A DNA stretch of 64,000 bases from Azolla caroliniana (lineage: Eukaryota > Plantae > Polypodiophyta): contig JBHGNT010000007.1 in the NCBI GenBank assembly GCA_043228905.1, positions 186,001 through 250,000 of the forward strand, read 5' to 3'. Made by a program: the position numbers and the translations under genes. Every line of letters begins with the position of its first letter. Position 1 is the first letter of the stretch. Under the pieces are notes generated by a model. It saw nothing but the letters and a program-made list of their open reading frames with translations, had not been told where the DNA came from and did no database searches. This document shows positions 13,779 through 62,149 of this stretch, piece after piece.

Positions 13779-16700
13779 CGCTCGGTCGGTCGACAGGAAA
13801 CCTTTCCTGCTGCTGCTAACACCACGCAGGCCCTCTCTGTTCTGATCTCTGCTCTCTGCTCTCTGCTCTACTCTTTTTACGTTTACAACGTAAGAGTGAA
13901 TATCTCGTCTTGTCTGTCGTCTGCTTCAGAGAGATGGAGAGAGAAAGAAAGAAAGAAGAGAGAATAATTAAGAAGAAATAATAACACACAACACCATGCC
14001 TTCTTCTTCTTCTTCTTCCTTCTTCCTTCTTATATCTGTATAGCAAACAAATTCTGGGAATGCCCCCCCCCCTGTTTTTTTAATTCCCCAATTTACCCCC
14101 CTAAATAAACCCTTTCTCTTCTCCTCTCTACATATTTCGAAAACAAGCAATTTTGCCAATAATTTGTTTTTGGCCCCTTACCACACACTCCATCAATAAC
14201 ACTTAAACCATGCATCCTCCTCTCCTCTATTGGTGGTGGTGGTCGGGGGGAGGTGATTGTGTTACATTTCATGCACATCTTGGATATAGGATCACATCAC
14301 CCCTCCAAGGTATAATCACAAATCAATGTGACAACATGGAATGACCGGGGGATATGTTCCCTAATTCTAAATTGCATGACATGTTTTATTAGGGTAGAGC
14401 CTAAGGATCAAAAAAATATTGAGTCTACTTTTCCTACGAAGGGTTATCACATATGTATATTATGTATATATGGATAAGTCCTTGTGCTTATTTAGCCATT
14501 TCGTTGGATTTTCGCAATCTTTGTCAACCACCCGTTATGGTAAGAGATAATTGTGGTTGGGATACTCTATTAACAATAACTAGTGTGTGTGTAGTCTTGG
14601 GATGGAATACCGGTCGGGGCCATCCATTATTCGGCATCAGCCGGTATTCGGGTCGGAAGCGACAACGGTGTCGTGATGAAAACCGGCCATGGGAGGAATC
14701 GGGAGGCCAAGCACGTGAACCGGTGCCACACGGATCGACATTTAAATTGATTAACTTTATGCCTTATTTAAGAATAGGTCACGTGATAGGGGTTAGCAAA
14801 TCTAGGTTTATCTCTGCCCGAATGGACAAAGAATAAAGGTGATGTAACTAGGATGTAATGGCCCACACCCAACGGCCTATAAAAGGGGGGGGAAGAGAGA
14901 CTGAGAGGGTATCGCGTTTTGGGAGAAAGGGGAAAGTGTTGTCAGACTGGGGACCGAGCACTGTTTCTGTGTGATCTCTGCAGGTTTTTGGTCGGTTGCC
15001 TCTGCTCACGAGGAAAGCCCGGGTGCTTCCAATAGAGGCTCCACTGAGTAACTCGGTTGTGTGTGTGTGTGCGCGCGTGTGTTTGGTTGGTCACCGGCGT
15101 GCCGGTTGTAATATCAGAAAGATTGTAATCACTTGTTAGTCGTAATCGATTCCTCTTGGGAAGTGGTCTCCTTGTTTTATTGTGACATTCTCTGATCTGT
15201 TGTTGTCTCCGTAACCGAACGGGCGCGCTCCTCTGTCTAACTCGTGCGTAGTTGTGTTCTCGTTTGACCCAGTCAACACGGTGCTTGCCGGCAACCAGTA
15301 CTTGTCGATCCCTCGCTTCCGTTCTCTTCCTTCTCTACTTTCACGCACTCCCCGGTTCAGGGCCCCCGTGGTTCCGCCTTAGTTTCCTATGCACACGCGT
15401 AACAACACGACATCTTTGGTGAACCCAACGTGAAACAAGGCGGCAGAGGAGTTGAAGATGAGGGGATTTGAACTCACCGAAGCCATGGCGGTAGCTGTCG
15501 ACCGGTTGGTGAACGCTCGAGAAGGCACAAGCGCCCTCGATAGGGCCATCGAATCGATTGTCGGCACAATAGGCTAGTTCGAAGGAAAGAACGCTACGAG
15601 CTATTTGGAGGCCTACCGGGCCGAGATGATGATGAGGGATATCCCAGACCACAGACAACTGGTCAGATTCCCTCGGCAGGTGACACCGAGCATCCATGCA
15701 GAGGTGCTCGAAGCGCAGGCAGGCTGCCAGACCTAGGAGGAGTTCGAAGGGCGACTCCTCGAGAAGTACGGGTTCGATGACTCGCTTCGGCTGTCGAAGC
15801 GGGACTTCATGGAATGGGTTCAAACCCCCAGGAAAGGGAGGAACGCGTCGGCGCTCCTCCAGGAGTTCGAGATTTGACGGTTTTCCCGTCTCTAGGCGTT
15901 AGATAGGACTATGCTTCACATGAGCCGGGTCCTGTTATTCGTCAAGTCTGTCGATGTGCAGGATCGAGAGCAAGTGGGTCTCCTGCTGGAGACGGATGAC
16001 GGGCTGACGGCCGACTGGGTTGTGGTAAAGAGAGTATGCAGCGCGAGTGGAGCGACGAGGGTTCGTCGACAACGAGACCAATCGCGGCAATGAAGTTTGA
16101 GGAGTCGTTGCTCCCGCGAAAGGAGGAGACCCGAAGTTGGCTTGATACGGGCTCGGCCCCAACCAACGTGGTCAAGGGCCCATCCGGAAGAGCGGCTCTC
16201 GAAGAGCTGACACAGATGGTGCGTGATCTTCAGATCGCACAAGCCCGGAGAGATAGCGGAGGACAATGGCGTGACCGGAGGCCTCCGACCGGACAACGGT
16301 GCATGTGGTGCGACGCGGTCGACCATAGCAAAAGAGACTGCGCAAAATTTACGGAAGTGCTCAGAAGTAATGTGGTTTACCTATGGAATAGGCGAGTACA
16401 AGCTAATGACACCCAGAGAGCCCTGGAGATGAATATCAGACATGGCGAAATGAAGTGGTTGATGGAGGAAGCTGCAGCGCGCCACATGGAGGCTGTCCAC
16501 TATTCCACGTCGGCTCGGATCCGGGTCAGAGGCAACGGAGGCCAAAGGACGAAGGATTCTGGATTTTGGTCGTCGGTACTAGAAGGCCTCCCCAGAGTAC
16601 GATTAAAGAGGGAGGAAGTGGACCGCACGGAGCAGCGGGTCCGGGAAGTCACAGGGTGGTCCGATCCGGTTGAGGAGAAGACCGGGTTTGTTGAAGTGGC

Positions 16701-17261
16701 ATGCCAGAACTACTAAATTCTAGTAGAGGACAAGTGTGCGGGAAAGGCCGGAGGGACCGGACCCCCGAATCGGTATGAGACTCGGTTTGGACTGAGGAAG
16801 AACGATGTTGATAATGAAGCAGGCCGGGCTACCGGCTGAGCACGGAGATTGAGAGATCGAATGACTTGCAGAAGGTCCTCGAAAAGTGGATCCTCGACAA
16901 CAAGGTGGAGTTGTCGTTGAGAGAAGTGCTCAGAATTGCGAAGAGGGAATTCCACGATTCCATCGTGGATTTGGTAAAGCATAAACGGCTCTCGACGGAA
17001 CCGGAGAATCCCGTGGAAGTGCGGACAACGCACCTGGAGGAGGAAGCCTTGGAGGATGAGTTGGCAGAGAGCCACTACTCAAAGATACACTGGGCAAGAG
17101 CTACTACGGAGACCACGGTCCAGATCAGGAATGTCCAGGAGCCGGTGGTAGCATTGATAGACCATGATCCGAAATCAACCTAATGTCCATGGACTTCTAC
17201 AGGAAGGGGAAATGGCCAATCAACACCAAGCACGGGTGGAAAATACGCGCGGCTACACACG

Positions 17262-22637: not shown

Positions 22638-22953
22638 TGTCGCATTGTTACGCGCGTGCATGGAGAACGAGGCGGGACCACCGTGACGGGAACTAAACGC
22701 TCCTTATGCGCAACGCTCGGCCACAACCGAGCTTAGAATCATACACAAAAAAACAGGAATGAATGCACGACACAGTGAAGAGAAGAGTACACAAGATGTT
22801 TACGTGGAAAACCCAAACTAGAGTAAAACCACGGCAGCCCACAGGCTGCAAACTATCACTATGTTACAGTGTACAACAGTAAAGCACCGAGGTAACAACC
22901 TCAAGCTTTCTATCTTCGCCATAGGCGGCGGTTGCAACAGAGGCAACAACCTC

Positions 22954-22991
<38 letters not shown>

Positions 22992-24036
22992 CATAGTTAC
23001 GCGCTCTGATCTTGCACAAACAAGAATAACAACAACACTCTACATCACAGCCAATAAGTTTGCCCTAAGTCATATTTATACTAATATGACTTTTCGGCTA
23101 TTTACAAATATAGCCTCGATGGACTCTCAGAAACATATTTACGAATATGTCTCTTCATCTGGTGAGCACTCCTCACTGGGCCTGCATCATCTGGCACTTG
23201 CTGGGTACTAGCCATCCGGTTCTCACCGGGTCTTCTGTTTCCGGGTACTCCTCATCCGGTTCTCACCGGGTCTGCACCATCCGGCTCTCCGTAGTCGGGT
23301 TCTCCTCATCGGGTTCTCACCGGGTCTACACCATCCGGCTCTCCATAGCTAGGTACTCGTCATCTGGTTTCTCTCTTCCCATCCGGAGGGACCTGTCTCC
23401 CAACACACCGGGGCCTCGGACCGAGAAATAACCGAATGAAGGGAGGGGAAGGACTCTAACGATGTAATTCACACGCGCACAGACCCACAGAATCACAGGA
23501 ATTGCAACTAGCTACAGAACGCGAGATGGAGACAAAACGAATGTTTATGTATATGTATATAAATCAAGGTGTTACAACCGGCAAGCCGGCGAGTGATGGG
23601 CTCCGACGCCTACGCACACACACACATAGACAGAACGCGAGATGGAGGCTCTGCCGGGAGCACTCGGGCGTCCCGCGGAACAAAGTCAGCCTCCCGAAAC
23701 CTGCACAGAACAATTATGGAGACGACAGAGGAGAGGAGAAGCACTCAGTTCTAGTCTGGCAACACTTTGTCCTCCACAAAAACGTGATCCCTTTTTCAAT
23801 ACCTCCCCCTCTCTTTTATAGCCCAAGGAGAGAGGTCGTTACCACCCGTTACATCATGTTGAAAGGACTGGGATACGCCTCGATTCTCTCCCTACTGAAT
23901 GCGTGCTACCTAGGATTTCACCTCAGCCGACTTGTACCTATCTACGTACTATACAACAAAACTTGTGCCCATATGTAAGGGCCGGTTTACACACGTTATA
24001 CGCGGTTTCCGCCTAGGGACGGTTTTCTCCACAATA
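22638..24036 (-). mobile_element. Solo LTR of the Trp-primed Gypsy family (element J), interrupted by a Copia solo LTR
   Basis: Ends match the family LTR termini (tgtcgcattgttacgcgcgtg ... ggacggttttctccacaata). Flanks ACGT/ACAT give a 4-bp TSD with CpG decay. Confidence 0.75.
22684..23405 (-). mobile_element. Copia solo LTR related to the intact Copia at 32429
   Basis: TG...CA ends, perfect 5-bp TSD CACCG (22679-22683 and 23406-23410). Shares tgttggga..ggtccctccggatgg, the CCGG repeats, (GA)n and gggttttccacgt with the element H LTR. Confidence 0.85.
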
Positions 24037-24933: not shown

Positions 24934-24971
<38 letters not shown>

Positions 24972-26563
24972 CAGAAAATACAAAACTATATTCAAAATCA
25001 TTCTTTGTATGTTTTCTCTACATGTTTCGGGCTCAGTGAGCACCTTTTTATACAAGCCCCGACTATTGGGCTGACACAAGTACTGCCAGTACTTGACCAC
25101 TCATAAATGAGCCTCCTACACTAACTCCCAAAACTATTCCTTACGAGGAATAACGTTCTAACGGCCTCTCGGTTTAAACACTGCCACGGCCATATTTTGC
25201 GTATGGTTTTACGCACCCAGTCTACGTACTGGGTTACGTACCCGTTTACGCACCCTATGTTGAGCTTGTCTTCAGCGAAGGTGGAAGCCATCTCCACAAT
25301 AAGAGAAGAATGCAAGTCAGTTACGGAGGTCCGAAGATTCCTAGGCGCATGCGCGTTTTATCATATTTGGATTCCCCATTACACACACGTCGCAGAGCTG
25401 CTCTACGGGCTGTTGAAGAAGGGTCATAAGTTGCATGGAACGAGGAGCACGCAGAATCGGTTTGGATGCTAAACGATGCGTTGGCCATGACATTGGCTCT
25501 CTGAAAGGCGGTTTACGGAAAGGGTACCCCGATCAATGTGATGGTGGATATGAGTCCGACCGGAATTGGGTGGGTGGTCAATCAGGAAGACGAAGACGGC
25601 ATAAGGTTCCCTATCCGATTCGGAGCAAAGATATTAAGTGAGCGGCATCGAGGATACGCCTAGGTTAAACGTGAGCTTTGGGGTATTGTTTTGGCAGTCA
25701 AGGCCGATAAGGATTATTTGATCGGGGTAGAACTGGTAATCAAGACGGATTGCCTACCGATTCTCGGGATGGTTTCTAGATGCACGACTCCGGATCTAGC
25801 TATGCTCAGGTGGATCGCGTATATTAAGTCCCTAAATCCAGAGATACGGCACATCTCCGGGAAAGATAACGTCATGGCCGATATGCTTTCAAGAGCGTGG
25901 TTTGACGACGAAGACGGCATGGTTTCAAAGAACAAAGAAGTCGCCTTGGACCTCTTCGAGTCGGCTCAAGTGGCGGCAAGAGAAGGGAGCACTCCAACAC
26001 TTAATGAGTTCAACGAGAACGAGTACGACGGGGATTGGATCCGGATTGTAGGTTCTTGAGGATGTTGATGTCAGACGTGGCATGGACAAAGGACGAAGCG
26101 GTCAGGATCCGGAAGAAGGCCGGACACAACGGAACGTGGGGCACGTTTGAAAAGCTGAAGGAGAAATATTGGTGGCCAGGGATGTACCAGGACATGCATC
26201 GGTTCGTGACGACCTATGAGAGCTGCCAGATGCATTCCGTGATACAGCACAGAGACGGGTTGCACCCGACCTACCCGCCGACCGTCCATTTCAAATAGGT
26301 GGTGGATTTATTGACCATGTCGATGGGAGTGGGACAAATGCGGTACCTGGTGCTTGCGTGGGAGGACCTAATAAAGCGGGTGGAGGGTCGTGCACTGCAT
26401 AACGAAACAACCGCAGTCATATGTTGGTCCCTAATCAAAGAGGTGGTTTGCCAATACAGATGTGTGGGGAAGATCGTGGTCGACCGGGGAGAACTGGATG
26501 CGCAGAAAGCCGAAGAGTTGTTCGGCCGGTTGGGGGTAAAACTCTCTCTCACTACGGCGTACA

Positions 26564-26920
26564 AGAAACCCATCCTCCCTTGACTACCACAACTTTCGTC
26601 TCTAGTAAGATCGGCACCATGCGTTCCGGCTCGAACTCCACTTGATAATAATTCCGACCAAGCATCTATACATCTGTGATATTATCAACATCTTGTTTCA
26701 ATGCGGCTTGCAATAGTAAACGGAGATCAACATGTCGAGGACCAATGCCCAAAACATGTGCAATGACAATCCTCTTCTCTAGACATTGTATCTCTTGTAC
26801 GATTTGTGTTCGATCATGTTTTGACAATAGGAGCTTTACTACATAGTTCGAAATAGGGGAGATGTTCGGGTTAGTTCCCTGAGAGCCCCGATTAGACAGA
26901 TCGCAACGGCGCAACTACTG
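26564..26920 (-). mobile_element. LINE ORF1-like remnant
   Basis: ...IVIAHVLGIGPRHVDLRLLLQAAL...MLGRNYYQVEFE..ILLETKVVVVKGGWV resembles the RRM/DUF4283-type N-terminus of plant L1 ORF1. Confidence 0.5.
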
Positions 26921-27089
26921 CTCCTTATTCACAGTTGTATCAAGGAAGATTCTTATGTTTAGGTGCTAGACAACCATAGATTACAACCTTATACCTTTGA
27001 TTGCAGTTATCTATAGCACTTGTGAAGTGCACTAGTCAGAGTGGTTGCTAAAATTGGAAAGAAATGGATGCTTGATCCTTATCCTTCAT

Positions 27090-28085: not shown

Positions 28086-28189
28086 AGGAGAATTCAATGA
28101 GTCTTGTCATCTATTACTATCATGTTGGATGCAAGCATTGATGTTAAGTGGACGTAGCTAAGAACATGAATTAAGATGGAGAAGGTGGT

Positions 28190-29273: not shown

Positions 29274-30440
29274 TGTCGTGAAGATCCGTCACTACGCGCG
29301 GATCGTGAGGCGGAACCACCAGAAGGACTCAAAGTTTGCACTAACTTTAGCGAGAAAGGAATTAAGATAGATTGAAAGAGAGAGAGATTGAGATAAGATA
29401 AAACACTTGACTTTAGATTGAGAGAGATTAAGATTGAACTCTTGACTTTAGATTTGAAGAACAAGATGGATACATCAATTGGATAACGAATTTCTTACTT
29501 TTAATTTCTTGATTAATACATCGCTCCCCTTGCTTGATTCCTCCACTCTTTTATAGATGCCCCCATGCATATGGTGCATGTGAGGGTGCAAGACATGCAC
29601 GGAATGCATGAAATGCATGCAATGCATGCTTGCCATGTCATCATCTAAGCTCTCATGTATGAGAATTAGATGTAAAAGTATAAGAAAAAATGTATCCCTA
29701 AAGAAATGATTTGGCTTAATGGTAAGCCTATAGACTCTCAATTGGGAGGTGCAATGTTCAAGTCTTGCATAGATCCCTTTTTAAACCACAACATACTATT
29801 AGACTTTTGGTCTTGTAATTACACCAAATATTTTTAAGACACCATGCACCGCGATCAACCGATCCGTCCGATTTGCACCCGTTGTCGCGAAGAAAACCGG
29901 CCATAGGTGGAATCGGACAAAAAGGCGCATGAACCGGCTCTTACATGGATGGATGCATGAATTGATATTTTGATATTGATTCATAAATGGAACGGCTGAT
30001 CTAAATGCTAGGTAGTACACATTCATTAGGGGATTGTGCGTATCTCTGTCAAAAGGGACAGGGAATAAAGCGATTTCATTAGGGGAAAAGGGCACCCCCT
30101 TTTGGGGAACTATTAAAGGAGAGGAGAGAAGGAGGAGAGAGATCGCGCGTTGGCGAGGACGAAGTGTTGCTGCAGAACCGAGCGTCGAGCTCTCTCTCCT
30201 CGAATCGTCGTTCTCTGCGGGTGTCGGGAGTTCGCGGCCTCTGCTTCGTGGACAGCCCGTGTGCTTCCAGCAAAGTCTCTCCCCTTCCCCTTTCCCCTTT
30301 TGTTTTCTTCGAGTCGTGTGGTTGTCGTCGGTGTGCGTGAGTAGGACCCCGTGTCGAGTCCGTTACCGAGTTGCCGGTTGTAAGCTATTGACTATAGTAA
30401 TCAGATTCCTATTTTCCTTGCTCTTAATCTCTCTGTGTAC

Positions 30441-30525
<85 letters not shown>

Positions 30526-32428: not shown

Positions 32429-32802
32429 TGTTGGGATTTCGGTCCCTCCGGATGGGATGTCCGGAGATGAATGACGGCAAGCCCGGAGGCTGTTACCGAA
32501 CCGTATGATGAAGAGTACCCGGCATGAAGCCGGATGAAGAGTACCCGGCTACGGATCCGGATGATGAAGACTCCGGTTACGGAGCCGGATGCTGAAGACC
32601 CCGGTTACGGAGCCGGATGACGTATGTACCCGGAGAGAGATCCGGATGCGGGGACATATCTGTGAATATGTTTGCCAAGGGCCCTTGAGGCTATATTTGT
32701 AAATAGCCCGAAAGTCATATGTGTATAAATATGACTTAGGGCAAACAGTTTTAGGTTGTTGCTCATTTTATGTTTTCAGCCGAGAGAGCGAAGTGTGAGC
32801 AG

Positions 32803-32836
<34 letters not shown>

Positions 32837-37597: not shown

Positions 37598-37631
<34 letters not shown>

Positions 37632-37903: not shown

Positions 37904-38166
37904 CAGTTCCTTCGCTCGCGCGCGCGACCGAAAAGACTGTTCGCGCGGTCTTTGTCTCCACTCGTGTTAGGGCCCGTTCCCGCCGATTATCCTCCTAATT
38001 CGCTTCTATGTACAACTCGGAGCGTGCGCGCGTGAAGAACCGGTTCCCACGCCTTGGTGCGCCGATTCCGCCTATGGACGGTTTTCTTCACGACATCCGC
38101 CCCCACCTAACCGTGCATCCCCCGGTATGCACCAAGAGAGTTGGGACGGAGAAAACCGGCCCGTCT

Positions 38167-46700: not shown

Positions 46701-48119
46701 AGAGCCGGGGATGACACGACTTCGACCAATGGGTAGCATCGGCAAAGACCCACCGGGGCGCGACGAAAGCGTTCCGAGAGTTCGAGCGACGGCTTGCTCG
46801 GCTCCCGGAGCGGGAACAAGGTTTGGTGGGGGCGGACAAAGTCCTTTTGTTCGTCAGGTCGATCGACCGAGCGGAACGGGAAGCCATCGGAATTGAGCTC
46901 GAAGACGATGATGGAGCAAATGGGCTTACGGAGGACTGGTCGAAGGTCAGAAGGGTGTGCCAACGGCTAGATGATGAGCGAGCCGAGAGGGGTAAGAGGA
47001 AGGGACGCGACGGCGTGCCATCACAGCGGGAAGAGGCCGAACGGCAAAGAGATCCGGCAAGGGTCGGCGTTGGGGCCAGGATTGCGGAGGCGTACGAAGC
47101 TCTCAAAGCGATGCTCGAGGAAGAAGGAAGATCGAGGCCGGAAGCCGAGACCGAGGAGACGGACTTGCCCCACGCGACGGCGGAAGATCGGTACCACAAT
47201 ACCACGGGAGAGGGTGCGGAACGAAACGCCCTCTCGACTTGCGGAGAGAGAACAGCCAAGGACGAGGCCGAGATACAGATCGCGGAACCGGAACATTGGG
47301 ACCAGCGGTTTCGGGCGTGTCAGCCCGAGATCCTGGTCATTGAAGAAGCAAGCCCAGACGAGGCTTGCGCGATCGGTAAGAAAATGACCGCCGACCACGA
47401 AGAGTCGGTGGCTACGGACAAGGGCGTAAAACGGACGGGCGATTCTTTGTGTCTTCCCACACTTGCTCCCGAGACGATGGCAGTCGGGCCCGAGTGCCCA
47501 CGTGAGTCCCAAGCGGAGGAAGGTTGCGGCGAAAGGCCAAGAATCACCGGCGAGACGATACGGGGAAGGAGCGGACGAAAGCCCACGGACCCAATTCCAG
47601 AGAACTCGGCATTCGGGCCCGTATGCCCATGTAAGACCGAGGAGATGGATGGCAGTACCGAGGAGTCCTGTCACGATGCCAATGAAGACGGATGGTAAAC
47701 GGCCTGCGAGATGGCTAGGGATGGACACGGCACGATGAGATCGGCATTCCGATACGGAAGGAGCGTAATCCAATCGTGGATTGTTCAATCGGGGCCGGAC
47801 TCGACATAAAGGGGCCAGTACGGAAGGGGGTGCGGGACGAGGCGCCCTCTTTTACATGGGGAGAAAGATCGACCGGCCGAAGGTCGAGATTTGGAAAGAG
47901 AATGAAAGCCGGTCCTATGGGATTCCTTACACCGATCCGGCTGCAGGCCCGAGTGCCGGCGTAAGTCCTATAAGAGAAGACGGTGGCGACAAGAGAACGG
48001 GACTCGGCAATCCGGAGAAGGACGAACGGACCCGGACGAGAACCGGGCGGAGCGGAACCCCGGATGACCATTCCGGGAGGGAGGAAGAGAGCAGGCCTAC
48101 GAAGAGACCGAGGACACGG

Positions 48120-51100
48120 TGTCGTGAAGAAAACCGTCCACAAGCGGAATCGGTGCGTCGGAGTGTAGGAACCGGCTCTTCATGCACGTACGCCTTGTGT
48201 TGTACATAGGAGAGAATTAGGGACATGGGAGATCCTAGGTAGGTAGATTCGGTAGGTAGGAAGTTAATAGGAAACGGCTCCCTTCTTGCCTATAAAAGGA
48301 GGGAGACGAGGAGGAGGAAGGTATCGCGGAATCAGAGAGGACGAAGTGTTGTCGGGCTGTCGGTCGAAGGCTTCTCTCTCTTCCATACTCCATAGCTCCT
48401 TTCTGTGCAGGTTTCGGGAGGCTCGCGCTGCTCTGAGGAATGCCCGAGTGCTTCCGGCAGCACCTCCAACCTACACCTTTCTTTCTGTGCGTTTACGAAC
48501 AGGCATCGGCATCTATTCGCCGGCCTGTTCAGTTGTAACCGACTTCGTGTTTTTGTTGTTTTGTCTTTGTTAATACATACATACATTCGTGTCTTCTGTG
48601 TCGTTGTCCCACTCGCGTCTTTGTGTCGAAGGGCCGTGTCCCTGTGGATCTACGCTCGAACGTAGTGGGTCTCTTCTCTTTTCTCTCTTGCTCTTCGGTA
48701 CAGGACCCCCGAGGTCCCGCCTCATTCCACGCATCCGCGAGGGATACCTCGACATCTTGGTGAACCCGACGTGAAGGAGGCGGCAGAAGAGCAGAAGATG
48801 AAAGGGTCGGATCTGGCGGAGGCCATGGCTTCGGCCGTAGATCGGATATTGAGTGCACGCGAGGGCTCTAGCGCCCTCGACAGAGCCATTGAGGCGATCG
48901 TCGGTACGATCGGCCGGTTTAGCGGAAAGGATGCCACGAAGTATTTGGCGTCCTACGGGGCAGAAATGCTGATGCGGGACATTCCGGAAGAGAGGCGTCT
49001 TGCCGGGTTCCCTCGAGTGGCGATGCCGAGCATCCATGCGGAGGTGCTCGAGCTGCGGGCGGAGAGCCGTACCTGGGAGGAGTTCGAAGGTCGACTCCTG
49101 GAAAGATACGGGCTGGACGACGCGCTCCGGCTTTCGAAACGGGACTTCATGGAGTGGGTGGAGTCCCCCGGCAAGGGAAGAAACGCGTCGGCACTTCTTC
49201 GGGAGTTCGAAGAACGCTTTGCGCGCCTTTCGGCGCTTGACCGAACCGTTCTGGATACGAGCCGGGTCCTACTGTTCGTCAAGTCGGTGGACGAGCGGGA
49301 CCGGGATCAAGTCGGCTCCCTGCTAGAAACCGAAGACGGGCTGACGACCGACTGGACGGCGGTTAAGAGAGTACGTGGCCGTTTCGACAAACGGCGAGAA
49401 TGGGCTGACAACGGAGCGACCGGAGCGGGCTCTGTCACAACAAGGAGGATTGAACCGGCACCACAAGGGCGAAGGGAAGAAACCCGGGAATGGCTCGAAA
49501 CCGGTCCGGCTTCGACCGGCATGGTCAGTGGCTCGTCCGGAGGAGCAGCGCTGGAGGAGTTGACGCGGGCGATAAAGGATCTCCAGATCGCCCAGACCCG
49601 AAGGGAAGGCAGCGAACCGGCTCATGACCGACGGCCAGTTGCAAGGAACAGGTGCATGTGGTGCGACGAGGTCGGCCACATCCGGAAGGACTGCGACGAT
49701 TTCGCAGAAGCATTGAGGAACCGGGTGGTGTACCTGTGGGAAGGCCGGGTGCATGCCGACGACACCAGAAGGGCCCTAAACCGAAACGATGGGCGAGGAG
49801 GAACGAAGAGACTGATGGAAGAGGCAGCGGCCCGACACATGGAGGCCATCCACTACTCGGCGTCGACCGGCATTCGGGTGGGGGGCAGCGAGGCCCAAAA
49901 GGAGGGCAAAGACGGATTCTGGTCGGCAATGCTGGAAGGTCTTGCCGGCGCACGGCTAAGGAAAGATGAAACGGACCGCGCTGAGAGACGGATCCGGGAA
50001 ATAACCGGGTGGAGCGATCCGGTCGAGGAGAAGACGGGCTTCGTAGAAGCCGCCTGCCGGAACTACGAGGCTCTGGTAGAAGACAAACGAGTGGGGAAAG
50101 CTGGAGCGGCCGGGCCCTCACAACGGTACGAGACCCGATTCGGGCAACGACGGAACGATGCCGGTGGGTCCAGCTCGCAAGATAACCCCAGGAAGGGCGG
50201 TTACCGATTGGGGACGGAAATAGAAAGGACTACGGACCTACGAAAGGTCCTAGAAGAACGGATCCTCAACAGCAAAGTGGAGTTGTCATTGCGAGAGGTG
50301 CTAGGGATCGCCAAGAAGGAGTTCCACGACTCCATTGTGGACCTGGTGAAACGGAAGAGGTTGTCGACGGAGACGGAACCAGAGAGACCGATGGAGGTGC
50401 GGAAGACGCACATCGACAACATGGCGCTGGAAGATGAGTGGGCGGAGAGCCACTATTCAAGGCCGCACTGGGCCCGAGCGACCATGGAGACCCCAGTAAA
50501 GATCGGAGATGTTCAGGAACCGGTGGTGGCATTGGTGGACCACGGTTCGAAAATAAACCTGATGTCCATGGACTTCTATAAGAAGGGGAAGTGGCCGATC
50601 AACACCAAGCACGGGTGGAAGATACGGGCGGCGATGCACGCCACCGAGGAACTGCACGGGGCCTGCCCGAACGTGCGCGTCAAGATCGGCGACGTCGAGA
50701 TTGACCAGCACTTCTTCGTACAGGAGACGTCCTCGCACCCGGTCATATTAGGGGAACCATACATCACAGCGGCGCGAATGGAGACCAAGGTGCTGGACAA
50801 CGGTTCGGCCTACGCGAGGGTCAAAAGCCAGGACGGGCGCCATTCGGTGCAATTTCTGACGGTGTGGCCGAACCACGAGCGAAACCGCGAATCCCTCGGT
50901 GGCGAGAACCGGGAGGATTTTCAGAGGGGGCTGCCAAGGCGTGGGGCCGAGACAGCCCGGACACTCGGGAAAGACCCCACGACTGTACGATAGAACCGAA
51001 ACCGAAGAAACCCTGTACGATAGGCAGGAAATTTTGCTTCTCCGACGACGGAGGATGTATGATAGTCGGCATCGTTGGCCAAGAAAGGGCAAGGGCGGAG

Positions 51101-54100
51101 GAGCGACTTCGAGCGTGCGGAGTTCTCGACCCGGACGAGGAAATCACCGGAGCCGTGGAGGCGGTCTCCTTCGACGACACCTTGGGGATGCTGAGGAAGG
51201 TAGCCGGAGAAGACCTTAATGAAGACCGGACGATACCGGTATGTTCCGAAGAAATGTACGAAGTCATCGCGAACTTCAGCCAGGGGCTCCGGTCGGATCG
51301 GACGGCCCGAGTTAGCACAAAGTACAAGACTGTGGACCGGAAGGTAAGGCCAGTCGCGGCACCCTTACCGGAGGGCAGCGAGTCCCGAATCAGAGGGGTT
51401 GCGTCGGACCCCAGTTTACGAGATCCGGCCTGCATAGGACACACCTTCACCGACGGGATGCTCCGGGAGCTCAAGATCGGTGGGGGCGGGTTCCTACTGC
51501 CAGCGGAGGAAGACCGGTTTCGGAGAATGCTCAGAAGGCACGGGAAAGCCTTCGCATTCTCGCCGGAGGAGATCGGGTGCGTAGACCCGACAATCGTGGA
51601 GCCGATGGTGATATTCACGGTACCGCATGTGCCGTGGAATCTCAAGCCAATTCCGGTACCAAGAGCTCACATCCCGGAGTTGATGGAGCTACTGAGGCAG
51701 AAAGTCGATATGGGTATTCTCGAACCGTCGAGCGCGCCATACTCGAACCGATGGTTTACCGTACCAAAGAAAAACGGAACATTGCGCTTCATTCAGGACC
51801 TGCAGCCGGTCAACAGAGTGACCATTTGGACCGACCATAGACGAGTTTGCGGAGGCCTTCGCCGGAAGGTCGATTTACTCGGTCGGTGATCTGTACTCGG
51901 GGTACGACCAGTTCCAGCTAGCCGTGGAGAGCAGAGACATTACGACGATGTGAACTCCCCTCGGCCTAGTGCGAATGTGTACCCTGCCACAAGGAGGGAC
52001 CAACTCGGTGGCCCACATGGTGAATGCAATGAACAAGGTACTGAGGGATTGCATCCCGGACATCACCATGCCATTTCTGGACGACATCCCGATAAAGGGG
52101 TGCCCGGTGGAAGAGAAGGACGAGACAGTCGGGCCGGACGGATGCCGGCGATTCGTGGCAGCACACATCGACGACTGCGAGAAGGTGCTACAAAGGCTAG
52201 AGGATGCGAGGCTCACCTTCTTCGGGGAGAAATCGGCCTTCAGGCAATCAGAAATCCTGGTGGTCGGACACCTGTGTGGACCGTATGGCCAGAAGCCGTC
52301 TCCGGCAAAAGTAGAAGCCATCTCCGCGATGAAGACCGACTATAGCTCGGTTACGGAAGTTCGGAGGTTCCTGGGGGCATGCGCGTTCTACCACATATGG
52401 ATCCCGCATTACGCCCACGTTGCGGAGCCGCTATACGGGTTGCTGAAGAAAGGGCGAAAATTCGAGTGGCGAGACGAGCACACGGAGTCGGTCCGAAAGC
52501 TGAAGGAAGCTCTTGCGGCAGCACCGGCGCTCCGGAAGGCTGTCTACGGGAAGGGTACCCCGGTATACATAACGGTGGATACGAGCCCGACCGGGATCGG
52601 ATGGGTCATCAACCAAGAAGACGAGGAAGGCACCCGATTCCCGATCCGATTCGGCGCAAAGGTCCTCAGTGAGCGACAGCGAGGGTACGCCCAGGTTAAA
52701 CGCGAACACTGGGGTATCGTTTCGGCAGTAAAGGCCGACAAAGACTACCTGATCGGGACAGAAGTGATTATCGAGACGGATTGCCTGCCAATTCTCGGCA
52801 TGGTTTCTAGATGCGCGACACCGGACCTGGCGATGCTCAAGTGGATAGCGTACATCAAGTCCCTGGATCCGGAAATACGGCACATTTCCGGAAAGGACAA
52901 CGCCATGGCTGACATGCTTTCGAGGGCGAGGTTTGATGACGAGGGCGGCATGGTTTCGGAGGACGAAGAAGTCGGCGTGGACTTCTTCGAGGCGGCGTAC
53001 GTGACGACCGATGGGACGAGCACTCCGGCACTTAACGACTTCGACAAGAGCAAGTACGACGGCGAGTGGCTCCAGATCGGTGAATTTTTTAGGACAATGA
53101 CGTCGGATGCGTCATGGACGAAGGACGAGGCCAACCAGATCCGGAAGAAAGCTTACCGATTCTTTCTCCGGGACGGATACTTATGGAAGCACCCGAAGAA
53201 GAGGAACGGCGTCCCGCTCTAGGTGGTGGCGATGAAGGAAGAACAGGAGGAGCTGCTGACGGCCTACCACGACAGCCCTTGGGCTGGACACCGTGGAACG
53301 TGGGCCACGTTCGAGAAGATAAAGGGGAAGTACTGGTGGCCGGGACTGTACCGGGATGTGCATCGGTTCGTGACAACTTGCGAGAGCTTTCAGATGCACT
53401 CCATAGTCCGACATCGGGACGACCTTCACCCTACGTACCCTCCGACCATCCACTTCAAATGGATGGTAGACCTGGTGACGATGCCGATGGGAGTAGGACA
53501 GATGCGGTATTTGGTCCTGGCTCGGGAAGATCTGACGAACCAGGTGGAAGGCCGGGCCCTTCAGAACAAAACGACTGCAGCCGTATGTCGGTTCCTGATC
53601 GAGGACGTGATATGCCGGTACGGGTGCGTCGGGAAGATTGTGGCTGATCGCGGGGAGTTGGACGCCGAAGAGGCCGAGGAGCTGTTCGACCGGCTAGGAG
53701 TCAAGCTCTCACTCACCACTGCATACAATCCGGAGGCGAATGGGAAGGTGGAGCGCGGACACGGACCGATCGTCAAGGCGTTAGTTCGGGCATGCGGAGG
53801 TCAAGTCGGGAACTGGCCGCGGTTGTTGCCTTACGCATTGTGGGCGGACCGAACTACGCACAGTTCGGTAACCGGATTCATGCCGGCAGAGCTCATGTTC
53901 GGGCAGAAGCCGATCATGCCGATGGAACGTACAATCTCCTCATGGGCAACCGTGGACTGGAGAGACGAGATGAGCCGGGAGGAACTGTTGGCGGCGCGCA
54001 TACGACAGCTCGAGCGAAGACCGGAGGACGTGGAGCAGGCTGCGGGAAAGCTTCGGGAAGCAAGGATGAGGAACAAAGCCCGGTTCGACCGAACGCACCG

Positions 54101-55112
54101 GCTCCGACCGAAGAAGATCGAGGAAGGCGACTGGGTGCTAGTCTACGACAGCAGCCTCGACAACCAGCACCGCGCGACACGGAAGTTCGCAAGAAGGTTG
54201 TTCGGGCCTTACGTGGTACAAAGCGCCAACGACAACGGGACGTACCATCTGGCGGAACTCGACGGCACGAGAATGGCGATACCGGTAGCTGGGAAGCGGA
54301 TCAAAGCGTTCAAGAAGCGTCACGACGATGAGCCGGATCCGGTTAACCTGGACCGGAACGATGAACGATCCGAAACCGAGGAAGAACCGACGGGCGGGGA
54401 ATGAAGGCTGGACCGGTTTTCTCCGTCCCAACTCAATTTGGCGCATGCCAGTGGATGCGCGGTTAGGTGGGGGCAGATGTCGTGAAGAAAACCGTCCACA
54501 AGCGGAATCGGTGCGCCGGAGCGTAGGAACCGGCTCTTCATGCACGTACGCCTTGTGTTGTACATAGGAGAGAATTAGGGACATGGGAGATCCTAGTTAG
54601 GTAGATTCGGTAGGTAGGAAGTTAATAGGAAACGGCTCCCTTCTTGCCTATAAAAGGAGGGAGACGAGGAGGAGGAAGGTATCGCGGAATCAGAGAGGAC
54701 GAAGTGATGTCGGGCTATCGGTCGAAGGCTTCTCTCTCTTCCATACTCCATAGCTCCTTTCTGTGCAGGTTTCGGGAGGCTCGCGCTGCTCTGAGGAATG
54801 CCCGAGTGCTTCCGACAGCACCTCCAACCTACACCTTTCTTTCTGTGCGTTTACGAACAGGCATCGGCATCTATTCGCCGGCCTGTTTGGTTGTAACCGA
54901 CTTCGTGTTTTTGTTGTTTTGTCTTTGTTAATACATACATACATTCGTGTCTTCTGTGTCGCTGTCCCACTCGCGTCTTTGTGTCGAAGGGCCGTGTCCC
55001 TGTGGATCTACGCTCGAACGTAGTGGGTCTCTTCTCTTTTCTCTCTTGCTCTTCGGTACAGGACCCCCGAGGTCCCGCCTCATTCCACGCATCCGCAAGG
55101 AATACCTCGACA
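48120..55112 (+). mobile_element. Element D: full-length, lightly decayed Trp-primed Gypsy
   Basis: 635-bp LTRs 48120-48754 and 54478-55112, perfect TSD ACGG, open gag-PR 48798-~50921. Pol is broken by a small deletion near 51826 and by stops near 51951 and 53220. Confidence 0.95.
50915..50980 (+). promoter_or_regulatory. -1 programmed ribosomal frameshift signal (G GAU UUU, 6-nt spacer, H-type pseudoknot); homologues at 41655-41590 (-) and 45415-45479 (+)
   Basis: The heptamer is in the correct phase and pol is in the -1 frame. Stem 1 shows compensatory changes and stem 2 GUGGGG/CCCCAC is invariant in all three copies. Confidence 0.85.
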
Positions 55113-55204
55113 ACGGTACGTCGGTACCACGGGAGAGGGTGCGGAGTAAACCGCCCTCTCGGCATGCGGAAAAGGACGACCCGGGACAGGGTCGGGAATA
55201 CAAA

Positions 55205-55440
55205 CGGGTCGGCGGCCTACGGAGGATCCTTCACACCGGTTCTAGAGACTTCGGCAGTCGGCAACGCGGTCGACATAAGACCAAGATACTGATGGTGGCG
55301 GCGAGGTGACGAAGGCAAGGGCTACGGGTCGGCGGCCTACGAAGGATCCTTCACACCAGTTCTAGAGACTTCGGCAGTCGGCAACGCGGTCGACATAAGA
55401 CCAAGATACTGACGGTGGCGGCGAGGTGACGAAGGCTATG
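55205..55440 (+). repeat. ~121-bp tandem duplication within the element C interior
   Basis: cgggtcggcggcctacg..gatccttcacacc...ggcggcgaggtgacgaaggc occurs twice, and further diverged repeats follow to ~56300. Confidence 0.8.
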
Positions 55441-58400
55441 GGCGTAAGGAAGTCCGGTCCTATGGGATCCCCACACTTAACCGGAGACCGGTTGTTCGGC
55501 CAACGGGGCAACGTAAGACCGAGGGAGAAGGAAGGTGGCGGCGGGAAACGGGACCCGACTACGCGGAAGACACGAGGAGAGTCCGGGAGGGACTCAAACA
55601 AAAGACACCCGAGTTTCGGCAAGCAAAGAAACGAAGTCCGGTCCTATGGGACCCTCACACCGATCCGGAGACTCCGGCTGTTCGGCCAACGTGGCAACGT
55701 AAGACCGAGGGAGAAAGACGGTGGCGGCAGGGAACAGGACCCGACGACACAAGGGAGGTGCCGGGAACGAGGTGACCAAGTGCCTAGTGGACTGCACAAG
55801 GTCGGAGTCAAGGAATGGCAAGAGAGGCCGGAGGAGGATCCTCCACACTCGCTTCGTAGATCTCGGTGGCTCCGTTGAAGTAGCGAAGACTGACACGGCA
55901 AGCCCGGGGTGACAAGCTGGTGGGGGCGAGGGGACGACGGCAAGCGGAAGACTCAGGACTTATCGTGGCAGCACGAAGACGGGAAGGGCCAAGCGGGCTA
56001 CTACGGGGTGTTCCTCGGATACAAAGGACACCGGTATGAGGGTAAACGACGATGCACGATCTGGCCAAAAAGGGGGCCGACGAGGCGTGCAATAAACGGA
56101 GTGCGACATGAGCGGTGCCAAACAACGGGCGAGGGAACATGGCACACGGAGGTGCCGAAGCGGAAAGGCGAGCGCGGAGATAGGTTGCGCGGTTCAGAGG
56201 TAGCGCGGGAAAGGACCCTCCACACCATTCCGGAGACCATGGCGGTTCGAGCCGACGTGGCGACGTAAGACCATGGAGAAGGAAGGTGGCGGCGAGAGGA
56301 CGAGGGCAACACGAAACGACATGGGACGGCAATCAGGACGACGCGAATGATCAACGGAGGCCAAGCGGGCCACTACAGGCATGCCTCGAGCGGAGGACAT
56401 CACGCCTACGGCGGGAAGCGGGGCATTCATACGGCCAAACGAGGGCCAACGGAAGTACGAGTACTACGAAGATCGCGGCAGAGGAACCATCAGCGGGTCA
56501 AACGAGCCTACGGGGAGGCGTGCGCGAAGGAAGACTCGGAGCCAACGGATCAAACCGGCAGCGAGCCGAGATGCGGATCACGGGAGACCGGTTTCTCGCC
56601 GGCCGAAATCTCTCACCCTTCAACCAGATTTGGCACGTACCGGTGGACGTGCAGTTAGGTGGGGGCGGATGTCGTGAAGAATTTCGGCAAGAGGCGGAAA
56701 CCGAGAAACATTGGCTACATCAGCGGGGTGCAGCGTGTGTACACACCCATGTACATTTTGTGTGAATATCGAGGGCGCCTTTATGGCGCCGAAGAGTAGT
56801 TAAGTCGGGACAGACAATCCCATGTAAGTCGGGATTGTCCCACATTGTAACGCATCCCTTTCCTTGTTCTATAAAAGGAAGGGAACGCCCTTTGTGAAAG
56901 GGTTGCCTATTTTGTGTGAGTAAGGTATACCACTTAGTCGAGGGTTCTCCTTCTTCCCATTTCGTTTTAGGGTTAGGGTTTCGGTTAGGGTTTTCTTCTT
57001 GGGTTTTCCTTTAGGGTTTTCATATAGTCGTTTGGTGCGGCCATGGCGGCCACCATTGTTGTAATCATTCATTTCTTAATAGAACTTCTTGTTGAGTATC
57101 TTGATTGCATCTTCTTCTTCTTCTATCATAATGTCATATTCGTTCTTTTCTCCTCTTGAGCTAATCTTTCTCCTCCACTCCCTAGTCCAAGACCCTCGTG
57201 GTCCCGCCCTTCTACACGCACGCGCGTAACAACGCGATAGCGGACTTCGGAGAAAGGATCGGGTCGGATCAGAAGGCCCGCATGGATACAAAGTACAAGA
57301 CTGTGGACCGGAAGGTGAGGCCAGTTGCGGCACCCTTGCCAAAGGGCAACGAGGAGCGGATAAAAGGGGTCGTGTCGGACCCAAGTTTACGGAATCCGGC
57401 TGGCATAGGGCACCGGTTCACCGGCATAACGCTACGGGAGCTCAAGGTCGGTGGGGGTGGCTTTCTACTGCCGGTGGAGGAGAACAGGTTTCGGAGAATG
57501 CTCAGAAGGCATGGGAAAGCCTTCGCGTTCTCGCCGGAGGAGATCGGGTGCGTGGACCCGACGATCGTCGAACCGATGGTGATCTTCACGGTACCGCATG
57601 TACCGTGGAATCTCAAACCGATTCTGGTGCCGAGAGCTCACATCCCGAAGTTGATGGAGCTTCTGAAGTAAAAGGTGGAGATGGGCATCCTCGAACCGTC
57701 GAGTGCCCCGTATTCGAATCGGTGGTTTACGGTGTCGAAGAAGAATGGCACGCTGCGCTTCATTCAGGACCTGCAATCGGTTAACAGGGTGACCATCCGT
57801 AATGCAGGAATCGGACCGACCATAGACGAGTTCGCGGAGGCCTTCGCTGGGAGGTCGATCTATTCGGTCGGTAACTTATACTCGGGGTACGACCAGTTCC
57901 AGCTAGCCGTGGAGAGCAGGGATATCACGACGATGCGAACCCCTCTCGGCCTAGTATGGATGTGTACCCTACCACAAGGAGGGACGAATTCGGTGGCACA
58001 TATGGTGAACGCAATGAACAAGGTGTTGAGGGACTGCATCCCGAACATCACCATGCCATTCTTGGAGGACATCCCGATAAAGGGGTGTCCGGTGGAAGAT
58101 GCGGACGAGGCTATCGGGCCGGACGGATGCCGAAGGTTCGTCGTGAACCACATCAACGACTGCGAGAAGGTGCTGCAGAGGCTCGAAAACGCACGACTCA
58201 CCTTCTCCGGAGAAAAATCGACGTTCGGACAGTCGGAGATCTTGGTGGTCGAACACCTGTGCGGGCCCTACGGTAGGAAACCGTCTCCGGCAAAGGTAGA
58301 GGCCATCTCCGCGATGAGGGACGATTGCGGGTCGGTCACGGAGGTCCGCAGATTCTTGGGAGCATGCGTGTTCTACCACATCTGGATTCCGCACTACGCG

Positions 58401-61016
58401 CATGTTGCGGAGCCTCTCTACGGGCTATTGAAGAAAGGGTGTGAGTTCGAGTGGAGGACGGAGCACACGGAATCGGTCCGGAGACTAAAGGAGGCGCTTA
58501 CGGTAACGTCGGCCCTCCGTAAAGCGCTTTACGGCAAGGGTGTCCCCATTTGCGTGATGGTGGACACGAACCCGACCGAGATCGGGTGGGTAATCAGTCA
58601 GGGGGACAAGGACGGCGTGCGATTCCCGATCCGGTTCGGGGCGAAGGTATTGAGCGAGCGGCAGCGAGGAAACGCCCAAGTTAAGCGCGAGCTTTGGGGT
58701 ATCGTCTCGGCAGTCAAGGCCGACAAGGACTATCTGATCAGGACGGAGGTGATCATCGAGACGGACTTCCTGCCGATACTCGGCATGGTTTCCGGATGCG
58801 CGACGCCGGACCTAGCAATGCTCCGGTGGATAGCATACGTTAAGTCCCTGAACCCAGAGATACGGCACATCTCCGGAAACGATAACGTCATGGCCGACAT
58901 GCTTTTGAGAGCGAGGTTCAACGACGAAGGCGGCATGGTTTCAGATGACAAAGAGGTCGGCGAGGACTTCTTTGGGTCGGCTAACATGACGACAAGGAAA
59001 GGGGACACTCCGGCGCTCAACGAATTTGACGAAAGCAGGTACGACAGGGAGCGGCTCCAAATCGGGAGGTTCCTACGGACGATGACGCCGAACACAGCAT
59101 GGACGAGAGAAGAGGTGAGCCGGGTACGGAAGAAGGTGTACCGATTCTTCCTGCGGGACGAGTGCATATGGAGGCACCCAAAGAAGAGAAACGGCATCCC
59201 GCTCCGAGTGGTGGCAAAGAAAGAAGAACAGGAGGAACTATTGGCAGCATTTCACGAGAGTCCCTAGGCTGGACACCGCGGAACGTGGGCCACGTTCGAG
59301 AAGCTGAAGGAGAAGTACTGGTGGTCGGGGTTGTACCAGGACGTGCATCGGTTCGTAACGACTTGTGAAAGCTGTCAGATGCACTTCGTAGTCCGACATC
59401 AAGACGAGCTACACCCGACTTACCCGCCTGAGGTCCATTTCAAGTGGATGGTGGACTTGGTGATGATGCCGATGGGAGTAGGACAGATGCGATACCTGGT
59501 GCTTGCGCGGGAAGACTTAACGAACCAGGTGGAAGGTCGTGCACTGCAGAACAAGACAACCGCGGCGGTATGCCGGTTCCTGATCAAAGAGGTAGTGTGT
59601 TGGTACGGGTGCGTCGGGAGGATCGTGGCGGACCGGGGAAAACTAGATGCGCGAGAAGCTGAGGAGTTGTTCGACCGGCTAGGCGTCAAACTCTCCCTCA
59701 CTACGGCGTACAATCTGGAGGCGAACGGGAAGGTAGAACGTGGGCACGGGCTAATCGTAAAGGCGTTGGTGCGTGCATGCGGAGGGCAGGTCGGGAATTG
59801 GTTGCGGCTCCTTCCTTACGCACTATCGGCAAACCGAACTACGCACAGTTCGGTGACAGGGTTTATGCCGGCAGAGTTGATGTACGGACAGAAGCCGATC
59901 ATGCCGGTGGAACGGACAGTTTCTTCATGGGCGGCGGTAGATTGGAAGGATGACATGAGCCGGGAGGAGTTGCTGGTGGTGCGGATTCGGCAACTCGAGC
60001 GGAGGCCGAAGGACATAAAAAGGGCGAAGGAAAAGCTGCGGGCGGCAAGGGAGCGGAACAAGACCCGGTTCAACCGGACACACCAGTTGCGACCGAAGAA
60101 GATCGAGGAAGGTGACTGGGTCTTGGTGTACGACAGCAGCCTTGATAATCAGCACAAGGCGGTGCGAAAGTTTGCTAGGAGGTGGTTCGGGCCCTACACG
60201 GTGACGAGCGCAAACGACAACGGCACGTACCACCTCGCAAAACTCGACGAAACACGGCTAGCAGTGCCGGTTGCCGGGAAGCAGGTCAAAGCGTTCAAGA
60301 AGCGGTTCGAAGACGAGTCGGAGCCTGCGAGCGGGAGCGACAACGACAATCGGTTCGGGCCCAGCGGGGAATCGGAGAGCGACGAGTGAAGCCGGTTTTC
60401 TTCGGTATCTACCCGTCTCTAGCGCATGCCGGAGGATGCACGGTTTGGTGGGGGTGGATGTCGCGAAGAAAACCAGCCATAGGCGGAATCGGACAAAAAG
60501 GCGCATGAACCGGCTCTTACACGGATGGACGCATGAATTGATATTTTGATATTGATTCATAAATGGATCGGCTGATCTAAATGCTAAGTAGTACACATTC
60601 ATTAGGGGATTGTGCGTATCTCTGTCAAAAGGGATAGGGAATAAAGTGATTTCACTAGGGGAAAAGGGCACCCCCTTTTGGGGAACTATTAAAGGAGAGG
60701 AGAGAAGGAGGAGAGAGATCGCGCGTTGGCGAGGACGAAGTGTTGCTGCAGAACCGAGCGCCGAGCTCTCTCTCCTCGAATCGTCGTTCTCTATGAGTGT
60801 CGGGAGTTCACGGCCTCTGCTTCGTGGATAGCTCGTGTGCTTCCAGCAGAGTCTCTCCCCTTCCCCTTTCCCCTTTTGTTTTCTTCGAGTCGTGTGGATG
60901 TCGTCGGTGTGCGTGAGTAGGACCCCGTGTCGGGTCCGTTACTGGGCTGTCGATTGTAAGCTATTGACTATAGTAATCGGATTCCTATTTTCCTTGCTCT
61001 TAATCTCTCTGTGTAC

Positions 61017-61069
<53 letters not shown>

Positions 61070-61642
61070 TTGTCTCTCCTTTGTCTGAGACCCCCGTGGT
61101 CCCGCCTCTTTCTACACGCACGCGCGTAACAACACAACACCCTTCGGTCCGCATCCCGAGCCAGTTTCGTCACCGACCGGCCGCCACCTCGCCAGTTGCC
61201 GTCGGTCCGGTTTTGGTTGGCCAAAACCTTTGCAAGTAACTAGGCCACACCCATTCATTTGATTAAGTTAGTTCAAGTCACCTTGAACTCTCTATGCTCT
61301 ACATATAGACACAAAATAATAGCTTTTGGCTTTGCTTTATATATTGTAGGATCCTTGTTTGTCCTATCTATGCGGGACATCTCACAGGTTTGTTTTTCTT
61401 TTCTTTTCTTTTCTTTTTTCTCGCAACTTCATCCCCACATAACTTCACACTTAGTTGACCATTTGTTATGTAGCAAAGTGCATTCAAAAGCTCTTCAAGA
61501 CCTCCATCTTTTTGTACCAAGATATTAAACTTATTTAAAATAGTATCTTCACTATTATTGTTTTATATTTCGTGAGAAGAACCACACTCGATTTCGTATG
61601 TTCCTCACCATTTTCACACCGTTGCCGAAAATCTTCACGACA

Positions 61643-62130: not shown

Positions 62131-62149
62131 TTGGTTATCTAAACCATAT

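What the first reader, a model, noticed from the sequence alone, without database searches (positions are those of the whole stretch)
14665..61143. Trp-primed Gypsy family makes 4-bp TSDs centred on CpG (sequence-specific integration)
Seen: D ACGG/ACGG, C GCGG/GCGG, E ACAG/ACGG, B CCGT/CCCT, solo LTR J ACGT/ACAT, plus single readable flanks A ACGG (14665-14668) and G TCGT (29270-29273). All seven are NCGN on at least one flank, and two of the three mismatched pairs differ by a CpG-type transition. The two Copia insertions have ordinary 5-bp TSDs (CAGTT, CACCG). Known: plant LTR elements mostly give 5-bp TSDs with weak preference, while 4-bp sequence-specific TSDs are typical of insect errantiviruses (ZAM and tirant prefer CG-rich sites). 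Inference: a CpG- or mCpG-reading integrase without a chromodomain would steer insertions away from AT-rich genes into young CpG-rich TEs, explaining the self-nesting.
Basis: partly seen in the sequence, partly recalled or inferred. Interest (0 to 1): 0.8.

Follow-up and report, generated by a model that had tools for sequence, protein, structure and literature searches.

The report
Phygy retrotransposons insert at CpG
A nest of plant jumping genes here inserts at four-base sites with CG in the middle, a real pattern but one already published for the Phygy lineage to which these elements most likely belong, so it is ordinary; whether the enzyme also reads methylation is untested.

Summary
All 7 family insertions have NCGN on at least one flank; C and D have perfect 4-bp duplications, E, J and B one mismatch. 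Two corrections: G has a readable right end and its flanks do not match (TCGT/CTAC), and B fits 5 bp as well as 4. Outside the window, 39 of 45 distinct LTR 3' junctions from metagenome contigs begin NCGN against 3.6% CpG background, mostly [A/C]CG[G/T]. But this is published: Neumann et al. 2019 list Phygy as 4-bp TSD (100%), NCGN, tRNA-Trp, no extra domain. The elements fit: no chromodomain or extra RNase H, named relatives in Physcomitrium and Riccia. A tree against reference Phygy sequences could not be made. Small additions: the refined motif, and an acidic residue at the integrase position matching PFV Ala188.

The parts
14665..14668 (+). Left flank ACGG of element A
14669..15412 (+). 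Element A 5' LTR, followed by the family PBS at 15417 and a decayed gag-protease (15458-17263) cut off by a Copia-type LTR; no 3' LTR found
22638..24036 (-). Solo LTR J, flanks ACGT (22634-22637) / ACAT (24037-24040); holds a Copia-type solo LTR 22684-23405 with TSD CACCG
25268..26565 (+). Decayed family pol remnant (RT-RH-INT, 59-75% to E pol), no LTR attached
29274..61642 (-). Solo LTR G (about 1.1 kb net), split by B; flanks TCGT (29270-29273) / CTAC (61643-61646), no matching TSD; sits in a tandem repeat
29883..61139 (+). Element B (6,988 bp net; LTRs 29883-30584 and 60459-61139, 31 mismatches); flanks CCGT/CCCT
31824..44607 (-). Element E (7,304 bp net; LTRs identical over 792 bp), inserted in B gag; flanks ACAG (31820-31823) / ACGG (44608-44611)
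32429..37903 (+). Copia-type element F in E's LTR, 5-bp TSD CAGTT, Met-type PBS motif at 33112 (internal control)
38167..41685 (-). E pol frame: RT, RNase H, integrase (38236-39378) ending in a GPY motif; no chromodomain, no second RNase H
41646..43772 (-). E gag-protease frame with DUF4100, overlapping the pol frame
43798..43813 (-). E primer-binding site (same motif in A, B, C, D); read as tRNA-Trp from recall
   Evidence: identity of the tRNA not confirmed by a tool (one search found nothing)
45763..57239 (+). Element C (4,480 bp net, partial gag, no pol), inserted in B pol; perfect TSD GCGG
48120..55112 (+). Element D (6,993 bp), inserted in C; perfect TSD ACGG

Best explanation
These are nested Ty3/gypsy retrotransposons, most likely of the Phygy lineage, that insert at four-base sites with a central CG, likely because the integrase itself selects that sequence. 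Shown: 4-bp duplication, central CG, a palindromic [A/C]CG[G/T] preference, and an integrase with no chromodomain. Inferred: the two active sites sit 4 bp apart as in the foamy-virus intasome, which needs a sharply bent pyrimidine-purine step in the middle; direct base contacts narrow that step to CG, since CA, TG and TA are each about twice as common in the flanks yet almost unused. Candidate contacts (untested) are the acidic residue after the second catalytic Asp (D-R-G-E/D) and the conserved loop before the GPY motif. Methylation is probably not required. Mismatched TSDs are likely later CpG decay. The nest is likely an ordinary tolerated pile-up, helped somewhat by the family's own CpG-rich DNA.
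For: Window TSDs and empty-site paralogues. 39 of 45 distinct outside junctions NCGN, 4 TG/CA, 1 TA, 1 GG; background 3.6%, binomial p about 4e-50, 2e-31 against the richest flank; CG at no other of 12 offsets more than 4 times. 32 of 39 are [A/C]CG[G/T] against 20.8% of background NCGN; 18 are ACGT against 6.1%. Flank background CA 6.7%, TG 7.2%, TA 6.6%, CG 3.6%. Phygy row in Neumann 2019 Additional file 5: 186 elements, 4 bp (100%) NCGN, tRNA-Trp 81%, no extra domain or ORF. Pfam finds only RT, RNase H and integrase in pol and DUF4100 in gag. Named hits: Riccia pol up to 65%, Physcomitrium patens gag-protease 43%, 69-70% over the protease stretch. Closest solved integrase is PFV by sequence and fold (Z 16.6). 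Serrao 2015: 4-bp-TSD retroviruses favour a central YR step and avoid T at the first base; here T at the first base is 0 of 45.
Against: G's flanks do not match; B is ambiguous between 4 and 5 bp. The three outside loci with both ends of a solo-like LTR have unequal flanks (CCTT/CCGT, ACAT/CCGT, CCGG/CCAT), so the outside set supports the motif but not the 4-bp length; these may be assembly chimeras or recombinants, not tested. Net lengths 7.0-7.3 kb lie just under the published Phygy range of 7,656-9,968 bp. No tree against reference Phygy sequences. The candidate residues rest on alignment only; PFV Ala188 contacts bases outside the TSD, not the central pair, and the model could not place the C-terminal loop (pTM 0.52). 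E's mismatch beside identical LTRs is not well explained by ordinary decay.
Confidence: 0.8

Rival explanations
1. The integrase prefers methylated CpG, so methylation stands in for a chromodomain and sends new copies to silenced DNA.
For: Outside flanks are richer in CpG than the window's gene-bearing DNA (median 3.0% against 1.0%). E has LTRs identical over 792 bp (81 CpG each) but a G-to-A change in its left TSD copy; that is the direction expected if a methyl-C deaminated in the single-stranded gap left by integration (my inference; about 2 in 164 by hand if one CpG change fell at random). 5 of the 6 non-NCGN outside flanks are TG, CA or TA.
Against: No methylation data. E is a single case; LTR gene conversion or assembly could also give it. 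Decayed outside flanks show no strand bias (2 TG, 2 CA) and J changed in the other direction. CpG decay shows methylation after insertion, not before. ZAM-group elements target CGCG in Drosophila (PMC5408687), which lacks CpG methylation (recalled), so CG reading needs no methyl group.
Confidence: 0.15
2. CpG targeting drives family self-nesting: young CpG-rich copies are the main landing pads.
For: 4 of 7 window insertions are inside family DNA (B in G, E and C in B, D in C). Family internal DNA has 9-10% CpG against 1.35% in the gene-bearing part.
Against: 5 of 44 outside flanks are family DNA; 3 of 44 reach 7% CpG and 21 of 44 are under 3%. Three Copia-type elements also sit inside family DNA in this nest. 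In P. patens the Phygy nests named by Jedlicka et al. were into Tcn1 (PMC6911290). Caveat: short-read assemblies under-represent insertions into repeats.
Confidence: 0.2
3. The CG centre only reflects generic bendability (any pyrimidine-purine step) or the CpG-rich host elements.
For: Central YR preference is general for 4-bp-TSD retroviral integrases; 44 of 45 outside junctions have a central YR step.
Against: CG is the rarest YR step in the flanks yet takes 39 of 45 sites; the retroviral YR enrichment was only about 63% over random.
Confidence: 0.03
4. The elements belong to another 4-bp lineage (TatI or Selgy) or an unnamed sister clade.
For: TatI is also 4 bp with tRNA-Trp; Selgy is 4 bp. 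Lengths fall between Selgy and Phygy. DUF4100 gag look-alikes also occur in Basidiomycota.
Against: TatI has an archaeal-type RNase H in 100% of copies; none is found here and only about 70 bp separate the pol stop from the LTR. Selgy uses tRNA-Ala and is 4.4-6.7 kb. NCGN is reported only for Phygy.
Confidence: 0.08

Closest known systems
Phygy clade, non-chromovirus Ty3/gypsy (Neumann et al. 2019, PMC6317226; passages, section 8 and Additional file 5 read)
   Same: 4-bp TSD with NCGN motif, Trp-type PBS, no chromodomain, no extra RNase H, no extra ORF, coding region fills the interior; gag-protease has named P. patens relatives.
   Different: Described from P. patens; these copies are only about 43% identical in gag to P. 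patens proteins, so the host is probably another plant. Slightly shorter (7.0-7.3 kb against 7.7-10.0 kb). The paper gives NCGN; here it resolves to [A/C]CG[G/T], ACGT commonest. No mechanism is given in the passages I read.
ZAM/Tirant subgroup of Drosophila errantiviruses (PMC5408687; passages read)
   Same: Sequence-specific Ty3/gypsy integration at a CG-containing palindrome (CGCG).
   Different: Errantiviruses have three ORFs and AGT...AnT ends; these have TG...CA ends and two frames. An analogue, not a family match.
Prototype foamy virus intasome and other 4-bp-TSD retroviral integrases (Serrao et al. 2015, PMC4422553; passages and section 14 read)
   Same: Closest solved integrase; 4-bp stagger, central YR step, T avoided at the first base.
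   Different: Retroviral preference is weak; here one dinucleotide takes 39 of 45 sites. The Ala188-equivalent position is neutral and compact in retroviruses but Glu or Asp here.
TatI and Selgy (Neumann et al. 2019)
   Same: 4-bp TSD; TatI also tRNA-Trp.
   Different: TatI carries an archaeal-type RNase H; Selgy uses tRNA-Ala; neither is reported to prefer NCGN.

Membership tests
Phygy | Clusters with P. patens Phygy in an RT-RH-INT tree (the primary definition) | not testable with these tools
   REXdb sequences (Additional files 1 and 3) are too large to read. Indirect only: named P. patens hits to gag-protease and the RT-leading stretch, which carry no lineage label.
Phygy | 4-bp TSD | tested here: met
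   C, D perfect; E, J one mismatch; paralogue overlap 4 bp for E and C; B ambiguous, G unmatched
Phygy | NCGN target motif | tested here: met
   7 of 7 window sites on at least one flank; 39 of 45 outside junctions
Phygy | PBS for tRNA-Trp | tested here: inconclusive
   One PBS motif in all 5 elements with a 5' LTR and in 11 of 58 outside loci; its match to plant tRNA-Trp is recalled; a search for a matching tRNA in viral contigs gave 0
Phygy | No extra domain (chromodomain, aRH) and no extra ORF | tested here: met
   Pfam at E 0.01 on E pol and gag; gag and pol fill E and D from PBS to PPT. Tested on E; C has unexplained internal DNA
Phygy | Length 7,656-9,968 bp | tested here: inconclusive
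   E 7,304, D 6,993, B 6,988: 5-9% under the range, which comes from one species and which the authors call weak for classification
TatI | Archaeal-type RNase H (aRH) domain | tested here: not met
   No second RNase H in E pol
Selgy | tRNA-Ala PBS, 4.4-6.7 kb | tested here: not met
   Lengths 7.0-7.3 kb; PBS read as Trp from recall
Chromovirus (Tcn1, Galadriel and others) | Chromodomain at the integrase C-terminus | tested here: not met
   No Pfam chromodomain; 63 residues follow the GPY motif
Errantivirus (ZAM/Tirant) | env ORF and AGT...AnT ends | tested here: not met
   TG...CA ends and no room for a third ORF

The most novel reading that the evidence does not exclude
Phygy integrase reads 5-methyl-CpG directly, using a lineage-specific acidic residue and C-terminal loop in place of a chromodomain, so DNA methylation itself routes new copies into silenced DNA; E's TSD mismatch beside identical LTRs records a methyl-C deaminated in the integration gap.
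Probability: 0.15. Interest if true: 0.65.

Novelty: already known. Interest (0 to 1): 0.2.

Why it matters
As a discovery it matters little: 4-bp NCGN sites and tRNA-Trp priming were tabulated for 186 Phygy elements in 2019. What this adds is modest: the trait holds in divergent relatives outside P. patens, the motif sharpens to a palindrome, and two integrase sites are named for testing. I found no paper that explains the preference. If methyl-CpG reading were shown, it would be a chromodomain-free way to aim an LTR element at heterochromatin, and P. patens makes that testable.

Tried and rejected
No genome is held for this window, so the genome-wide TSD test was replaced by a metagenome scan. 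Laying four public runs on E's LTR showed the family is abundant there but gave no countable junctions; not used as evidence. A search for a tRNA matching the PBS in viral contigs gave 0. G's flanks were tested against three repeat-unit paralogues: 3-4 extra bases, and all four TCGT/CTAC differences are transitions, but the alignment is ambiguous, so G is left unresolved. A strand-bias test for gap deamination was flat (2 TG, 2 CA). Six non-PPT left junctions in the outside loci (4 NCGN, 1 ACAT, 1 CCTT) agree but were not added to the count; a seventh with a decayed PPT (L026) was left out. The integrase model confirmed the fold only; domain positions are unreliable. The host could not be named: an exon gave no Atlas hit. 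Papers read without bearing: PMC12810828, PMC11899658, PMC7466625 (passages); PMC12885004 (passages) only shows Phygy annotated in a liverwort. Look-ups of earlier findings by words and near place gave nothing.

Full report
Verdict. The 4-bp, CpG-centred target site is real and is the published signature of the Phygy lineage.

Anatomy. Self-comparison and terminus searches give one nest: solo LTR G (29274-61642, minus) holds B (29883-61139); B holds E (31824-44607, minus) in its gag and C (45763-57239) in its pol; C holds D (48120-55112); Copia-type F (32429-37903) sits in E's LTR. Further left are A (5' LTR 14669-15412, cut off at 17263) and solo LTR J (22638-24036, minus), which holds a Copia-type solo LTR. 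LTR pair mismatches are E 0 of 792, D 11 of 635, C 15 of 570, B 31 of about 681. All five elements with a 5' LTR share one PBS motif; I read it as tRNA-Trp from recall.

Observation. C and D are perfect at 4 bp and poor at 3, 5, 6 and 7; E and J have one mismatch at 4 only; B has one at both 4 and 5. Uninterrupted paralogues carry a single ACGG at E's site and a single GCGG/GCGA at C's site. G's right end is readable and followed by CTAC, so G is an unmatched pair, not a single flank. The chance of seven NCGN sites from local CpG content is 1.6e-9, or 2e-7 with two tries each.

Outside test. No genome is held. A scan of metagenome contigs for the family's LTR 3' end, which does not constrain the bases that follow, gave 58 loci: 11 were followed by the PBS and were dropped as 5' LTRs, and 2 of the other 47 were duplicates. 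Of 45 distinct junctions 39 begin NCGN, 4 have TG or CA, 1 TA, 1 GG; CpG background is 3.6%. First base A 27, C 14, G 4, T 0; fourth base T 28, G 10, C 5, A 2. 32 of 39 fit [A/C]CG[G/T] against 20.8% expected. Limits: the contigs come from a small group of assemblies of an unnamed organism, the exact pattern favours young copies, and single flanks cannot give TSD length. Three loci with both LTR ends have unequal flanks, which counts against a clean paired test.

Identity. E pol has RT, RNase H and integrase only; gag has DUF4100. Named relatives are Riccia pol (up to 65%) and P. patens gag-protease proteins (43%; 69-70% over the protease stretch). Neumann et al. 2019 (PMC6317226) write that Phygy elements have an insertion preference for NCGN, and Additional file 5 gives 186 elements, 4 bp (100%) NCGN, tRNA-Trp 81%, no extra domain. 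TatI shares 4 bp and Trp but has aRH; Selgy uses tRNA-Ala. Additional files 1 and 3, which hold per-element TSDs and the reference domains, could not be read, so the defining tree was not made. Jedlicka et al. 2019 (PMC6911290, passages) also report 4-bp TSDs as commonest in Phygy and GC-rich centres in 4-bp TSDs.

Mechanism. Shown: stagger and motif. From established work: 4-bp-TSD retroviral integrases bend the target at a central YR step and avoid T at the first base (PMC4422553), and PFV is the closest solved integrase. Inferred: bending alone is not enough, because CA, TG and TA are each about twice as common as CG in the flanks. Direct base reading is therefore likely. The position aligned to PFV Ala188 is Glu in 89 and Asp in 19 of the 108 sequences, out of 121 examined, where my motif search matched; retroviruses have a neutral compact residue there. 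A loop before the GPY motif is also conserved. Both are leads: Ala188 contacts bases outside the TSD, I did not survey other plant Gypsy lineages at this position, and the model is too uncertain to place the loop.

Self-nesting and methylation. 4 of 7 window insertions are in family DNA, which has 9-10% CpG against 1.35% in the gene-bearing part. But 5 of 44 outside flanks are family DNA, 21 of 44 have under 3% CpG, and three Copia-type elements also lie in family DNA here. Short-read assembly bias could hide nested sites. Nothing here measures methylation at the target. The one hint is E: identical LTRs, yet a G-to-A change in the left TSD copy, the direction expected from methyl-C loss in the integration gap. 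It is a single case, and the four singly decayed outside flanks split 2 and 2. CG-specific integration also occurs in Drosophila ZAM-group elements (PMC5408687).

Literature search. Searches for Phygy with NCGN, moss or Marchantia and for CpG or methyl-CpG targeting by retrotransposon integrases found the description but no mechanism; most subscription journals are outside this library.

Scores. Novelty: already known. Interest 0.2. Most novel open reading: a methyl-CpG-reading integrase, probability 0.15, interest 0.65 if true.

Noticed in passing
window 31820-31823 and 44608-44611: E's LTRs are identical over 792 bp but its TSD copies differ by a CpG transition (ACAG/ACGG); the change may date from integration itself, or the LTRs were homogenised.
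   Followed up: partly
L016, around 247-275: One family LTR 3' end is followed by ACGT and then directly by another family LTR 5' end: possibly a second insertion into the TSD regenerated by the first.
   Followed up: no
window 38236-39378 (-), integrase residue 155: Glu or Asp at the PFV Ala188 / HIV-1 Ser119 position in 108 of 108 motif-matched pol sequences, and a conserved loop before the GPY motif.
   Followed up: partly
window 41646-41685 (-): gag-protease and RT-RH-INT lie in overlapping frames, with a run of T just before the gag-protease stop: the frame change would fall after the protease, not before it.
   Followed up: no
window 45763-57239: C is a young (LTRs 97% alike) 4.5-kb element with a partial, divergent gag, no pol and internal repeats (55204-55748): likely a non-autonomous derivative that keeps the same target choice.
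   Followed up: no
window 29270-29273 and 61643-61646: G's two flanks differ at all four bases, each by a transition (TCGT/CTAC); could be a heavily decayed CCGC duplication or a recombinant solo LTR.
   Followed up: partly
window 28208-29273 and 61646-62133: A tandem repeat of about 360-bp units interrupted by G; another array of about 177-bp units at 1030-1917 and a 188-bp duplication at 10407-10779.
   Followed up: no
P0002: The DUF4100 gag has close look-alike clusters in Basidiomycota as well as land plants; the lineage may be shared with fungi.
   Followed up: no
window 2800-9400: An intron-rich host gene, not identified (one exon gave no Atlas hit).
   Followed up: partly
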